In this document: positions 39,625-54,481 of the stretch, one piece after another | Layout of the letters: each line of letters opens with the position of its first letter | Position numbering within the stretch: the stretch's first letter is position 1 | DNA from: Lytechinus pictus | Taxonomy: Eukaryota | Direction of reading: 5' to 3' | Length of the DNA stretch: 64,000 nucleotides | Assembly (NCBI RefSeq): GCF_037042905.1 | Contig: NC_087245.1 | Coordinates: forward strand, 22,632,001 to 22,696,000 | The notes under the pieces: generated by a model | The model's input: only the letters and a program-made list of their open reading frames with translations | Databases searched by the model: none | Told to the model about the DNA's origin: nothing | Made by a program: the position numbers and the translations under genes

Positions 39625-42138
39625 ATAGTGTTGAGAACTCAAAGGTAGAAAAACTGCTAGGTAATTTCTCCATCTACGTCTTTACACCTATCATCGCTTT
39701 GGTACATGTCCACGTCTACACATCTTCGCTACAGTACAGCCAGGAACACTTCCCTGGTACAGCAATACACGTACATTATACATACATAACCCACACCTGC
39801 ACAGATTGCTTGTGAATATCAAATATAATGTAATTGTCAGGAACTGCACTACGGAATATTTCAACTTAGTGAAAAGGAGAAAAAAGAGGAAAGGGGAGAA
39901 AGAAAAAAAAAACACCAGGAAGAGTAATGAAATTAAACAGAAGAAGTCTATACAAAAGAGGGATCTGTATCCTGTTCCTTTATGTGAAATCCATATTATT
40001 CAAATGAATATGTGTTGCCCCTATTAAAAATGCCCTAGCGCGGCCTTGTGCTTTAATGGTTTCTTTATCTCTCTTCATTATTCCTATCATATATATATAT
40101 TTTTTTTTTGGGGGGGGGGGGCAGATAAATTGGCATTAATTTGTGTAAATAAAGGAAATGGTATTCACAAAAAAGATTGTATCGCAGTACTTTCCATTGT
40201 AAAGATGCATTGAAGCAGTAACATGTTAACATTACTTTACAATAACATAACATGCAAAAAATAGTTCTGACGAAGCAACGAGAAATATTTCAAGTATTTC
40301 ATAAAAGTGAGGGAGTATAGAGACAATTTTACGGTTACTATTTAGTTATTATGAGGAGGGTTAAGGGAGGAAGTAAAGAGGAATAGCAAGAGGAGGGTAA
40401 GGTGGTGGTAGAGAAGGAGAAGGAGAAAGAGCAAGAGGAGGAGGAGTGAGGAGAGGAGTAGGAAGTTGGCGGACGAGGAAAATAGGAATGTCACTGAGTC
40501 TGGAGAAGGAACTCGTAAATTCATTTATAAACTCGGCTCGTAGAGATATGAGCAGTCCATCCGTCATGTTGTAGCACGGCTGTCCCAAAGCTTACGTGAT
40601 TTATAACCTACACTCCGCCATGTTGTACTTTATCTTCTCCAGATAATCAGATAGTGTTGCAGAATATACGAGCTTTGAAGATGAAAAGAAATTTCTTGAA
40701 ATAACGTTTGGGTGCAAGGATGAACTTTGGTAAGGATTACCAAGTTCTTGGAGCGAAGCATGTGAACACTGGTAAATATACTGGTTAATCCTTACCAGTA
40801 GAGTATTTTTCGAGGATGGGGTTTACATTTTACCAACAATACTTTTAGTTGATCTTCCCAAATTTCCCTATATACCTGTAGACTGCATTCATGCTTTACA
40901 GTTGGATTGCTCTTAGATAAAAATAATAGTTCATACTTGTATAATAATTTTCTTTGTTTTCAGTTATTCTGTTTTTCTCTTGTTGGAAAATTGTAGATTA
41001 AAATTTATATTCCGAATTGTTTGAATTTAAAAGGTTTAAATGAGACACCACAAAAGTGAAGTGATATAAAAATTAGAATAGTAATGTTTTTTTCAAATTT
41101 ATCCAGAACATAACTAACCGTTATGTATATAATCTTCGTTTAATATTATTTGAATTATGTTTACGAGGACTTTCTTAATATTCCTACGAATCGGAAAAGA
41201 CCCATGTTTTCGATAATTTGACCAAGTGAACTTCAAATTGTAATTTCTCTATACGTTCATAAATGATGTATCGCTACGTCAAGCTTTTTTTTGGTAGGCT
41301 TTTGCTACCCATGTGGAGTTGGTCCTCCATATTGCATTGGACCTTTAACTATACATTAATACCTTTATACACCCCACTCGCAAACCATCGATCCTATGAC
41401 GTCAGTTACAAGTCCTTTAATATCAAACCGTAGTCGTAGATTTAATGAAATGTATACAAGTGCAACGGAAAAACATGCAGCATCATTAGATGAAAACAGT
41501 TTCATTGCACGATGAAACGGTGTTACTTTCTTTACCTTGTTGTAAACATGATTATTGGAACTTTGGGAATATTAACGCCTTAATGTAATTTCCTTAATGT
41601 TTTCAAAATCAATCTTGCTAACTCATTTGAGATTTAATAGTTAAGGCAAATAAAGAAATCCAAATTGTCTTTTTTTGTCAATATGTTCATATCTTCAGTA
41701 GATGTCATAAACATTATTCGTCGTTGATTTCCGAAGCTCCCATATTCAGTTAATACATTTATCATTATACGACGGAAGGTAGAAGGGAAAGATATTAAAA
41801 TCTAAATTGATCTGCGCATGCTCAGTCCTTAATTCAAGAGGACTGGGCATGCGCAGATGGTATTTCATTTGAATCTACCGTCATTTACTAGTATCGGTGA
41901 ACACGAGTCCGAGTTTCGGGTATTGGGATAAGGATAATATTTGTGTAAGGAGAATGGATTCGTGCGTGTGTTTGTGTGTGTGGAGTGTGTACTTCGACCA
42001 GTGCGTGTGTGTTATCGAGGAAGGGGTGTATGTAGGCCTATTGATTAGATATTAACACTCCCTATAACAGTTTTTTAAACGTTTAGGCCTTGGCCTCTCC
42101 TTTTCGGTCCTGTCGTATAATTCTGTCATATCTGTGGA

Positions 42139-42840
42139 CGATAAGAGTGACGTGTGTGTGCGTATGTGCGTGCGTGAGAAGGAAAATGTATTTTGGTGTA
42201 TAATCATTTTGATAAGAAGTGACGTGTGTGTGCGTATGTGCGTGCGTGAGAAGGGAAATGTATTTTGGTGTATAATTATTTTGATAAGAAGTGACGTGTG
42301 TGTGCGTGTGTGTGCGTGCGGGAGAAGGAAAATGTATTTTGGTGTATAATCATTTTGATAAGAAGTGACTTGTGTGTGCGTATGTGCGTGCGTGAGAAGG
42401 AAAATGTATTTTGGTGTATAATCATTTTGATAAGAAGTGACGTGTGTGTGCGTGTATGTGCGTGCGTGAGAAGGAAAATGTATTTTGGTGTATAATCATT
42501 TTGATAAGAAGTGCCTTGTGTGTGCGTATGTGCGTGCGTGAGAAGGAAAATGTATTTTGGTGTATAATCATTTTGATAAGAAGTGACGTGTGTGTGCATG
42601 TATGTGCGTGCGTGAGAAGGAAAATGTATTTTGGTGTATAATCATTTTGATAAGAAGTGACGTATATGTTCGTATGTGCGTGCGTGAGAAGGAAAATGTA
42701 TTTTGGTGTATAATCATTTTGATAAGAAGTGACGTGTGTGTGCGTATATGTGCGTGCGTGAGAAGGAAAATGTATTTTGGTGTATAATCATTTTGATAAG
42801 AAGTGACGTGTGTGTGCGTGCGTGAGAAGGGAAATGTATT
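42139..42840. repeat. 72/74-bp minisatellite, about 9.5 units
   Basis: Unit starts at 42147, 42219, 42291, 42365, 42437, 42511, 42583, 42657, 42729 and 42803. Confidence 0.95.
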
Positions 42841-43035
42841 TCCCTTCTCACGGCCGTGGCCGAGTGGTCTAAGGCGCCTGGCTATACATAAAAAGTCCGG
42901 GGTTCGATCCCCGGCCGCGGCACCTATGCCCGTGAGCAAGGCATTTAATCTACAATGCTCTTTTATCCTCCTTTCAAATAAATGGAAATGCTATATGCAT
43001 TATTGGTAACTAGGTGTGAAAAAAAAAGATAAGCC
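42841..43035 (+). mobile_element. tRNA-derived SINE inserted in the last minisatellite unit
   Basis: A box TGGCCGAGTGG (42857), B box GGTTCGATCCC (42901), A-rich 3' end, and TSD AAATGTATT (42832-42840, 43036-43044). Confidence 0.8.
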
Positions 43036-52214: not shown

Positions 52215-52761
52215 TTTTTGCTTGCTTTCTTTCGTTTACTCTTTCATTATTTTCTGCTTTGTTCCTTTCATTTTTTTTTTCTGCTTCATTCTTACCCTTT
52301 TCTGTCTCCTTTCTTACCTACTTACTTTCTTTCTTCCTGTTTTATTCTTTATTCGTACCTGCTTTATATACTTGTTTTTCTTTACTTACTTTCTTTCTTT
52401 CTTCCTTCCTCCCTCCCTTTCTTTCTTTCTTTCCTTATTGTGCACGTGTCTCGAAATATATAATAATCAGTCATTGCGTATAAAATGCCTATTGCGCCAG
52501 AAACAGTGTACGCGCTTTGCCCATGATATTCTCTTGACATAAGGAACGCTTCTATTGGTTAAACTGACAATATAAAGCGCATTTTGATTGGTAATATCTT
52601 AAAAATGGGCGTGTTGAAGATAAGAAGGAGGCAGTCCTTACAGAGATAAGAACGCGTTAAGAAGATTTTCAGAATACCGATTTGCAATGATTTTAGCGTC
52701 TTCTTATCTCAATGAGATAAGATAAAAGATAAGAACAAAGATAAGAACGTTTTCAGAATAC
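52215..52761. mobile_element. Truncated copy (right part) of the Harbinger MITE at 54582-56189
   Basis: Near-identical to about 55730-56185, ending GATAAGAACGTTTTCAGAATAC. Confidence 0.8.
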
Positions 52762-54481
52762 AGAAGACTTCAAAACATCGCATGCGGGATGTACCGGGTC
52801 TGGTCCGAGCTCGGACCCTCGCGCGCATGCGATGTTCTGAAATCGGCAGCGAATTATTACGTGTGAGGAACTTCATGTTGGCTCTAAATCATCAATTTTG
52901 AGACTGATAGAAGCATGGAAAAGAAATGAAACTTTGTGTAAAGTAAGAATATTAGTTGTACTTGTTTTTAAAGATCGTGATGTTGCATTAATTTTGTATT
53001 TTCTCCCCATAAAATCCCACCTTTTGTCACTCGGAATATCCGATCGAGTTCATGGTCTCGAAGTTCGGGTAGGTGAAGCGTAGTGTAGCGGTAGTGAAGT
53101 GGAGTGGAGCCTGCACGAACTTCGCTCGAGGTAACATAACCCACACCTGCACAGATTGATTTCAAATTTAAACGTACCATTTCTACTCTTAATATTCATA
53201 CATAGAGCCAACATATTTCCAAGTTATCAATACATATAATTATTGAAACCTTAAATACAATGATAATTATATATTTTGTACTTACAACATTGGGCTCATC
53301 AAAAATCAGAGTGAAATTAACTTATTCAAATTTCGTGCAACATCATCATGTCCGAAAAATAGGGCTCCCTCTCGAGTCAACTACAATTTCCAAAGAAAAA
53401 ATGTATCTCTTAGAACTGTCGACATAAACAAATTATGACAAATTTTGGCCTCTTTTTGCCAAGCAAAATAAATATATATTCCAGCAATTTACAGAGGGGG
53501 GGGGGGGGGGGGGGGAGAAAGAACATGCAAAAGATAAGGAAAACATATTTATCTCACTTATCAAAAGTCGAGCGCGCAGCGCGAGGTAAAAAAAATATAT
53601 TCAGATCTGAAATTTGCCATTCATGAAGAGCAAATGTATCTCATCATTTTTACATTCAGACTTAAAATGGGGACATGATTATTTAAGCACTTTTTGTAAT
53701 CATGAAAACATGCGTTTGTCGCTGATGAAATTATGAAAGCTCGAAGCGGGAGGAAAACATTTTAAACAACATGTAAACCCCTTGGACGGGGATTATGTAC
53801 TACTGCATAGAACAATCTGCGTGCGCCGGGAAGAGTGAACACATAGCCCCTAAGCAAATTACGTTTCATCAAATTTTGAAAGAAATCGCTTTTCCCATTG
53901 ATTCTCTTTCTTTCTCCCTCTTTCTCTCCTTCCCCATTTTTGTGCCAGCCAATGGGGGGGGGGGGGGGGAGTGCCCCTGTGTCCCCCGTAGCTACGCCAC
54001 TGAACGACATAAGTACGTGGGGGTCGAAGGTTCCCAATCGGCTGGCAAAAAGGGAAAAGGAAGAGAAAAATTGAAAAAAATGGGGAATGATGTAAACAGT
54101 AATAGAAATCATTTTTTATATATTAAAAATAGTCGATCAGACGCAATGATCATCAAAATTCATTTTGAATAAATTAACAAATAAATTTGCTTGGCAATCC
54201 TGGACCCGTTTCATGTCACCACTTCTTGAATAAATTGTGACATCTTTTCACGAATTCATCTTTTCCTCACTGGAGGAGATCAACCTGATCAAATATTTAT
54301 GCCAGTGCACGTTCGACCATGCCATATCGTTTTTTTTTATAATAATTTATTTGAAATGCAGTGCTCTCACATATTAAATGTCATCATTTGGTTCGACTAT
54401 GAATATTATGACATGCAAAATGACCTCGAAATTTTGAAATCACAAACTCCTAAAACTTGAAATTGGAATTGCAATAGGAGC

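What the first reader, a model, noticed from the sequence alone, without database searches (positions are those of the whole stretch)
39784..53158. 13.3-kb gene-carrying block inserted into an LTR with a 25-bp target duplication and no recognisable vehicle
Seen: the 5' LTR stops at 39808 and resumes at 53134 with a 25-bp duplication, then ends TTACA followed by the same GAGGG that precedes the other LTR. The block holds intron-containing host exons, a minisatellite, a SINE and MITEs. I found no TIRs, poly(A), TC..CTRR ends or transposase/RT ORF. Known: DDE transposons usually make 2-10-bp TSDs, Helitrons make none, and retrocopies normally lose introns. Inference: DNA-level capture at a staggered break (circular DNA or break-repair insertion) or an unrecognised large cargo element. 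Caveat: the GAGGG TSD lies in G-rich sequence.
Basis: partly seen in the sequence, partly recalled or inferred. Interest (0 to 1): 0.75.

Follow-up and report, generated by a model that had tools for sequence, protein, structure and literature searches.

The report
Collagen fragment captured beside transposon end
A 12.4-kb copy of the front half of a collagen gene lying 0.65 Mb away was pasted into an old retrotransposon LTR next to a half-inserted DNA transposon, most likely by DNA repair; it is an unusually large single case of a known way genomes duplicate gene pieces.

Summary
The split LTR and the exact 25-bp duplication are real, but the block is a composite and it does carry a transposon end. 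From left to right it holds: 12.4 kb copied, inverted and colinear, from a VWC-collagen gene about 0.65 Mb away (39809-52214); the right part of a Harbinger-like MITE; a 4-bp filler; and the right part of a young foldback MITE, F1, ending exactly at 53133. F1 makes 9/10-bp duplications (18 of 21 two-ended copies), never 25. The left end is host DNA joined with 1 bp of microhomology. Best reading: a transposase joined one F1 end to the LTR, and host repair built the other side, capturing cis DNA and lengthening the duplication, like one-ended aberrant integrations and repair-mediated duplications (0.62). Main rival: one F1 end carried the cargo from a donor allele (0.22). Five exons stay intact, but 80 of 81 exon-5 reads carry the donor base. 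No read tests the junctions.

The parts
27559..27563 (.). GAGGG, left copy of the retrotransposon's 5-bp target duplication
27564..28512 (-). 3' LTR of the BEL/Pao element; uninterrupted, but lacks a ~137-bp segment that the 5' LTR and other family copies have
29782..34683 (-). Broken gag-pol frames of the BEL/Pao element
   Evidence: Peptidase_A17 2e-44, DUF5641 2e-29, Integrase_H2C2 1e-8
34850..39808 (-). 5' LTR, left pieces (34850-35133, 35715-36099, 39664-39808), split by two other insertions
39784..39808 (.). Left copy of the 25-bp duplication
39809..52214 (+). Cargo: inverted, colinear copy of G000:C1:23342224 down to 23328542 (upstream region and first five coding exons of a VWC-collagen gene); 435 substitutions in 11229 aligned bases
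42135..43065 (.). Cargo-only segment absent from the assembled donor: 72-bp minisatellite (42140-42841) plus SINE-like piece
47818..47933 (+). Coding exon 1 (ATG 47837; signal-peptide-like by eye); one synonymous difference from the donor at 47890
48815..48900 (+). Coding exon 2, first half of VWC; identical to donor
   Evidence: (weak VWC hit, E 0.011, below cut-off)
49908..50010 (+). Coding exon 3, second half of VWC; identical to donor
   Evidence: (weak VWC hit, E 0.008, below cut-off)
50575..50753 (+). Coding exon 4, Pro-rich; identical to donor
   Evidence: splice seen in reads
51242..51373 (+). Coding exon 5, Pro/Thr-rich; one synonymous difference at 51343; the collagen exons that follow at the donor are not in the cargo
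52215..52761 (+). Right 547 bp of F2, a ~1.45-kb Harbinger/PIF-like MITE (3-bp CWG target); lacks the last 5 terminal bases; joined to the cargo in a T run
52762..52765 (.). 4-bp filler (AGAA) between F2 and F1
52766..53133 (+). Positions 296-663 of F1, a 663-bp foldback MITE (TAC..GTA ends, 9/10-bp target duplications); intact terminus exactly at the junction
53134..53158 (.). Right copy of the 25-bp duplication; its first 9 bases are where an ordinary F1 target duplication would lie
53134..53493 (-). 5' LTR, remaining piece, ending TTACA on the + strand
53494..53498 (.). GAGGG, right copy of the retrotransposon's target duplication, inside a G run

Best explanation
A transposon-made lesion finished by error-prone host repair. 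Shown: F1's right end is joined precisely to the LTR; the left ~1.2 kb of the nested F1[F2] unit is missing; in its place are 16 further bases of LTR and a 12.4-kb inverted copy of DNA from 0.65 Mb away; the internal joins have 0-3 bp microhomology or filler. Inferred: F2 had first inserted into F1 at a CTG site. Then either (a) the F1 transposase inserted only the right end, and repair extended the target duplication to 25 bp, trimmed the free left end and bridged the gap with nearby cis DNA; or (b) F1[F2] inserted normally with a 9-bp duplication, and a later break at its left side was repaired by template switching (re-copying 16 bp of LTR, then the collagen locus, then back into F2). In both, the transposon triggers the event, repair supplies the cargo, and the product has one end and is probably immobile. 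The source was a collagen allele already diverged from the assembled one, so the capture is recent.
For: F1 terminus exactly at the junction (chance ~1e-5). F1's own duplication is 9/10 bp: of 21 two-ended copies, 14 perfect 9 bp, 2 imperfect 9 bp, 2 of 10 bp, 2 with the 9-mer followed by filler at one end, 1 with none, 0 of 25 bp (two of the 21 share one flank). Single cis donor, colinear and inverted, with the complete gene there. Junctions: 1-bp microhomology, T-run join, 4-bp filler. Nesting: F2 stops 5 bp short of its end, and F1 has a CWG 2 bp before its break, true for 3.7% of F1 positions. No F1, F2 or LTR match in the 80 kb fetched around the assembled donor. Age order fits: LTR pair 16/691 substitutions (plus 16/275 in one piece), F1 arm 3/368 from its nearest copy, F2 5/322, 0 amino-acid changes in about 595 coding bases against 82/3697 in introns. 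Same anatomy in the literature: one normal end, other end truncated, longer host duplication, foreign host DNA inserted (PMC5041404 passages); repair-mediated duplications with microhomology, filler and 4-21-nt duplications (PMC2671141); cis bias of gap filling (PMC8277862).
Against: No intermediate (intact F1[F2]) was found in the genome. 12.4 kb is long for microhomology-primed copying: the largest distant case in PMC2671141 is 3,424 bp. No re-invasion signature in the cargo's indels (tandem 3 of 18 cargo-only vs 1 of 11 donor-only). An independent sample matches the assembled donor at 9 of 11 listed sites, so the diverged source allele has not been seen. No second F1 end with a long duplication was found, in a small survey.
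Confidence: 0.62

Rival explanations
1. One-ended transposition with cargo carried from the donor. An unseen allele of the collagen gene had F1[F2] in intron 5 with its left half deleted. The remaining F1 right end was inserted into the LTR 0.65 Mb away and dragged or templated 12.4 kb of adjacent gene; repair joined the far end and made the 25-bp duplication. A variant is DDSA: a break in F2 at the LTR was repaired on an F2 copy in that donor allele and synthesis ran on into the gene.
For: Explains the precise F1 end, the long tract and the non-canonical duplication in one step. The donor intron is insertion-prone: another 1.7-kb element lies 25 bp from this junction. The cargo differs from the assembled donor by several element-sized indels, so the source allele was a different one. 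F1 copies with only one end in the fetched stretch are common (5 of the first 20). DDSA is described in PMC3276153 passages.
Against: Neither the assembled donor nor sample X1's contig shows F1/F2 there (that contig ends at 52188, short of the junction). It needs a prior deletion at the donor as well.
Confidence: 0.22
2. Assembly artefact: the second haplotype of the collagen locus misplaced into the LTR.
For: Exons identical with introns 2-5% apart is what two alleles look like. No read support was obtained.
Against: The left junction has 1 bp of overlap, so it cannot be an overlap join. Both flanks return to the same LTR with an exact 25-bp repeat. The F1 end, the F2/CWG nesting and the filler form a coherent biological series.
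Confidence: 0.05
3. Transposon-independent capture at a 25-nt staggered break, of a linear or circular DNA that happened to end in an F1 terminus.
For: Microhomology and filler joins; duplications of up to 21 nt occur at repair-mediated insertions (PMC2671141).
Against: The F1 terminus lands on the junction to the base. There is no circular permutation of the donor.
Confidence: 0.05
4. An unrecognised large cargo element with a dedicated 25-bp duplication (as IS481EU makes ~4, ~15 or ~25 bp).
For: 25-bp duplications by a DDE element exist (PMC10045372 passages).
Against: Single copy; the left end is host DNA that runs straight on into donor sequence; no matching left terminus; F1 gave 0 of 21 duplications of 25 bp; no transposase frame among the block's ORFs of 100 aa or more (read by eye).
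Confidence: 0.04

Closest known systems
One-ended (aberrant) integration by DDE integrases/transposases, finished by host repair (ASLV/HIV, PMC5041404; two Sleeping Beauty cases, PMC5801840)
   Same: One precise element end; the other end truncated; host duplication longer than canonical; host DNA from elsewhere inserted at the aberrant end.
   Different: Those are experimental somatic events; this is an inherited natural locus with a non-autonomous nested MITE, a 25-bp rather than 100s-1000s-bp duplication, and a 12.4-kb multi-exon cis cargo.
Repair-mediated duplications / SDSA filler capture (PMC2671141; excision fillers in rice, PMC4423477)
   Same: Conservative copy of same-chromosome DNA into a repeat; microhomology, filler, chimeric templates, sometimes a target duplication.
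   Different: Cargo 12.4 kb vs up to 619 bp (proximal) or 3,424 bp (distant); donor 0.65 Mb away vs mostly under 5 kb; an exact transposon terminus at one side.
Pack-TIR / Pack-MULE, gap-filling and FoSTeST models (PMC8277862)
   Same: Host gene fragment joined to a long-TIR, 9/10-bp-TSD element; cis donor at a similar distance (Ssk and FB4 are 0.6 Mb apart); microhomology and filler.
   Different: Pack-TIRs keep element sequence on both sides; here the left end is gone, the duplication is 25 bp and the unit is single-copy.
Maize Composite Insertions from alternative transposition (PMC4270019)
   Same: 19-23-kb inserts of re-replicated flanking DNA with an internal end-joining junction.
   Different: Those have transposon termini at both ends and their cargo flanks the donor elements; here one terminus, and no element at the assembled donor.
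AcademH or MULE/Foldback (candidate superfamily of F1)
   Same: 9/10-bp duplications (AcademH 9 or 10 bp per PMC10045372; FB4 9-10 bp with long TIRs per PMC8277862); TA-starting ends like a DUF6589-encoding element in this genome.
   Different: No autonomous partner was found; the one DUF6589 family checked starts TAG, not TAC, and does not match F1. The DUF6589-Academ link is recalled.

Membership tests
Pack-TIR / Pack-MULE | Element termini on both sides of the captured DNA | tested here: not met
   Only a right F1 end; the left end is donor host DNA
Pack-TIR / Pack-MULE | Family-typical target duplication flanking the whole unit | tested here: not met
   25 bp vs 9/10 bp in 18 of 21 copies
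Pack-TIR / Pack-MULE | Captured host DNA with introns and an identifiable parental copy | tested here: met
Repair-mediated (templated) duplication | Conservative copy with the donor intact | tested here: met
   Donor gene continues into Gly-X-Y exons and is spliced in RNA
Repair-mediated (templated) duplication | Microhomology, filler or small deletion at junctions; no poly(A) | tested here: met
   1-bp overlap, T-run join, 4-bp filler replacing 10 bp; no poly(A) at either end
Repair-mediated (templated) duplication | Empty or pre-event allele at the acceptor site | tested here: inconclusive
   The partner LTR gives the empty sequence; no allele seen in reads
One-ended aberrant integration | One precise element end, the other truncated, with a non-canonical host duplication | tested here: met
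One-ended aberrant integration | Arises in a single integration event, not from a later break in a normal insertion | not testable with these tools
   Needs population alleles or an assay
Composite Insertion (alternative transposition) | Transposon termini at both ends; cargo flanks the donor elements | tested here: not met
Circular-intermediate translocation | Permuted order of the donor segment (criterion recalled) | tested here: not met
   Cargo colinear from 23342224 to 23328542
Retrocopy / L1 transduction | Intron loss or poly(A) tail | tested here: not met
   Four introns plus ~8 kb upstream retained
Helitron | TC..CTRR ends, no target duplication (recalled) | tested here: not met
   Ends CT.. 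and ..GGTA; 25-bp duplication
AcademH (for F1) | 9 or 10-bp target duplication | tested here: met
   criterion from PMC10045372
AcademH (for F1) | Autonomous partner encoding Academ transposase and helicase with the same ends | tested here: inconclusive
   26 DUF6589 matches in the genome; one family's end checked, no match; three long F1 copies held no transposase by eye, one carries a LINE
Harbinger/PIF MITE (for F2) | 3-bp target duplication and short TIRs (recalled) | tested here: met
   CAG/CTG next to the TIR in the copies listed; autonomous partner not sought
BEL/Pao LTR retrotransposon (host element) | LTR pair TG..CA, 5-bp duplication, Pao peptidase and integrase | tested here: met

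The most novel reading that the evidence does not exclude
A single end of the F1 foldback family (possibly served by a helicase-bearing AcademH transposase) can move 10-kb-scale chromosome segments in an animal germ line, leaving long, non-canonical duplications. Here it would have made an intact five-exon cassette that could encode a secreted VWC protein without its collagen helix. If so, more cases should hide among the 619 F1 ends, and the cassette's zero amino-acid changes could reflect selection rather than youth.
Probability: 0.15. Interest if true: 0.62.

Novelty: new member of a known kind. Interest (0 to 1): 0.32.

Why it matters
It is a well-resolved natural example of how a small non-coding DNA transposon plus repair can move a multi-exon gene fragment with its upstream DNA across a chromosome. 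It also shows that a 'long TSD' around a big block can be a repair product rather than the mark of an unknown mobile element. Donor, both nested elements and all four junctions are identifiable, so the order of events is testable with population long reads. It would matter more if one-ended F1 events recur, or if the truncated VWC cassette is expressed. Neither is shown.

Tried and rejected
1) L081 (C1:23.73 Mb) first looked like a second case, an F1 arm with an inverted copy of its flank. It is a separate TAG..CTA element inserted into F1 with its own 9-bp duplication, so it was rejected. 2) Long F1 copies as autonomous partners: L064 holds a LINE, and L065/L066 show no transposase frame by eye. 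The DUF6589 family at C2/C5 has a different end. 3) A second F1[F2] nested junction: 0 matches. A second locus spanning the cargo-F2 or F2-F1 join: none among 40 scored of 1765 candidates. 4) The full F2 copy at 54580-56192 as source of the F2 piece: it is more distant (3.8%) than other copies (1.5-2.5% for 9 of 10). 5) Other F1 solo ends with far duplications: none of 7 bp or more within the fetched flanks of 4 half copies (up to 3.6 kb). Flank searches for 2 of them were swamped by repeats. Of 12 further apparent solo ends, 3 were short two-ended copies and 9 stayed unresolved in 421 bp. The wide survey was not done. 6) Re-invasion signature: none. 7) Reads: no RNA holder listed. The lay gave no junction evidence either way, and the LTR stretch 53340-53795 had zero depth. 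8) The GGTA before 39664 is not an F1 end; that insertion looks like a truncated LINE end with a 10-bp duplication (my reading). 9) ARAGORN found no tRNA in the window. 10) No earlier scan notes near this place or like the F1 arm.
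Full report
OBSERVATION. The window is G000:C1:22632001-22696000 of an 812-Mb animal genome. A self-comparison shows a minus-strand LTR retrotransposon with an uninterrupted LTR at 27564-28512 and a second LTR in five colinear pieces between 34850 and 53493. Pfam places it in BEL/Pao. GAGGG flanks both outer ends. The 25-mer at 39784-39808 recurs exactly at 53134-53158 and once in the partner LTR. The 137 bp at 53285-53421 is not a further insertion but a deletion in the other LTR.

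WHAT THE BLOCK IS. Searching the genome with the block splits it into three sources. (i) 39809-52214 is an inverted, colinear copy of C1:23342224 to 23328542, about 0.65 Mb away. It carries about 8 kb of upstream DNA and five coding exons that splice into a 199-codon open frame: signal-peptide-like start, a VWC domain split over two exons (weak Pfam hits below cut-off), then a Pro/Thr-rich stretch. At the donor the gene continues into Gly-X-Y collagen exons, and RNA reads splice exon 5 to the first of them (25 and 32 reads in two runs). The donor is thus the parent gene. (ii) 52215-52761 is the right 547 bp of F2, a ~1.45-kb MITE with short TIRs and CAG/CTG targets; it lacks its last five bases. 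(iii) After a 4-bp filler, 52766-53133 is positions 296-663 of F1, a 663-bp foldback MITE with 619 terminal matches in the genome. Its terminus is exactly the last base of the block. F1 has a CTG two bases before its break, as 3.7% of its positions do. With F2 ending five bases short of its terminus, this indicates F2 had inserted into F1 (inference).

THE 25 BP ARE NOT F1'S SIGNATURE. I examined 35 F1-containing loci; 21 had both ends in the fetched stretch. Of these, 14 had a perfect 9-bp duplication, 2 an imperfect 9-bp one, 2 a 10-bp one, 2 had the 9-mer followed by short filler at one end, 1 had none, and none had 25 bp. Two of the 21 share one flank. Nine or ten bases fit AcademH (PMC10045372 passage) or MULE/Foldback (PMC8277862 passage). 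I could not find the autonomous partner. The left junction joins LTR to donor DNA with one shared G. The first 550 bp of the cargo had no match other than the donor (that search skips very common words) and runs straight on into donor sequence. The cargo-F2 join lies in a T run with 0-3 shared bases. So one end is transposase-made and the other three joins look like end-joining or template switches.

AGE. Cargo and donor differ at 435 of 11229 aligned bases, about 2% in the gene body and 5% upstream, and by three element-sized indels. In about 595 coding bases there are two differences, both synonymous, against 82 of 3697 in introns. About five amino-acid changes would be expected had the copy decayed neutrally since that split (P 0.007). 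The F1 arm is 3/368 from its nearest copy and the LTR pair 16/691 apart (16/275 in one further piece). The simplest reading is a recent copy from an already diverged allele. Against this, an independent sample resembles the assembled donor at 9 of 11 listed sites, so that allele has not been seen, and selection on the copy is not excluded.

READS. No whole-genome run of this organism was evident in the list. Laying one contig set and three raw RNA runs on 51060-54460 showed no listed piece or loose end across the three right-hand junctions. At 51343, 80 of 81 RNA reads had the donor base. These animals may lack the block, so this neither validates the junctions nor proves silence.

MECHANISM. 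Best: a transposase-made single F1 junction plus repair that lengthened the duplication, lost the left 1.2 kb of F1[F2] and copied in cis DNA (0.62). It could be one step (half-site insertion) or two (normal insertion, later break); the sequence cannot separate them. The anatomy matches aberrant one-ended integrations as described in PMC5041404, and the junctions match repair-mediated duplications in PMC2671141. Rival: one F1 end carried the cargo from an unseen donor allele, or DDSA on an F2 copy there (0.22). This explains the long tract better but needs elements absent from the assembled donor. Assembly artefact 0.05, transposon-free staggered break or circle 0.05, new cargo element 0.04.

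COMPARISON AND NOVELTY. It works like a one-sided Pack-TIR or a large repair-mediated duplication. It is not a Pack-TIR, Composite Insertion, Helitron, retrocopy or circular translocation by the features tested. It is unusual in size and in having one element end, but it is a single event of a known kind. Six searches listed no natural animal case of one-ended DNA-transposon capture above 10 kb among the titles and abstract openings shown; that is weak evidence of absence. My search for recurrence was small and found none; one apparent case dissolved on inspection.

PAPERS SEEN. PMC2671141: abstract, introduction, start of results, passages. PMC4270019: abstract, outline and one results section. 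PMC8277862, PMC10045372, PMC5041404, PMC5801840, PMC3276153, PMC4423477, PMC5488345: passages only. PMC4561436 and PMC2852846: search listing only. The AcademH paper and Wicker et al. 2010 were not held and are known to me only from citations and recall. No supplements were read; junction figures in the supplements of PMC2671141 and PMC5041404 could hold closer matches. Superfamily end motifs, the Helitron and circular-intermediate criteria, the SINE reading and the DUF6589-Academ link are recalled, not from a call.

VERDICT. Real feature, partly mis-described; new member of a known kind; interest 0.32.

Noticed in passing
window 35134-35714 and 36100-39663: The same 5' LTR carries two more insertions: a ~580-bp TIR element, and a 3.6-kb nest (LINE-like 3' end with a 10-bp duplication, a TIR element, ~160-bp satellite). 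The 3' LTR has none.
   Followed up: partly
window 28440/28441 vs 53285-53421: The 137 bp present only in the 5' LTR is a deletion in the 3' LTR: other family copies on C3 and C10 have 133-148 bp there.
   Followed up: yes
window 34689-34854: 81-bp tandem duplication overlapping the inner LTR boundary; the adjacent 280 bp of LTR is more diverged (16/275) than the rest (16/691).
   Followed up: no
window 45050-45550: About 500 bp upstream of the coding exons with only 3 substitutions against the donor, inside a region at about 5%; candidate conserved regulatory element or untranslated exon carried in the cargo.
   Followed up: no
window 56704-57654: Intronless 316-aa frame with Agglutinin_C / Lectin_C_term Pfam hits (1e-18, 2e-9), just downstream of the element.
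   Followed up: no
window 60821-61408: Exon of a carboxylesterase-family gene.
   Followed up: no
L064 1181-5517 (G000:C1:42.28-42.29 Mb): Apparently intact two-ORF LINE (980-aa endonuclease/RT-like frame by eye) nested inside an F1 copy.
   Followed up: no
G000: 26 DUF6589 matches, about ten in open frames of 1,400-1,850 aa, some in near-identical copies: probably recently active Academ-type DNA transposons.
   Followed up: partly
L030 and L074: F1 copies in which the 9-bp target copy is separated from one element end by 7-15 bp of filler; signs of cut-and-rejoin at single F1 ends.
   Followed up: partly
L016 (G000:C8:34.946 Mb): Two F1 ends 1,293 bp apart with no target duplication; possible rearrangement.
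   Followed up: no
L013 and L015 (G000:C37): The same F1 insertion with identical flanks occurs twice, about 405 kb apart, on a 521-kb contig: segmental duplication or assembly redundancy.
   Followed up: no
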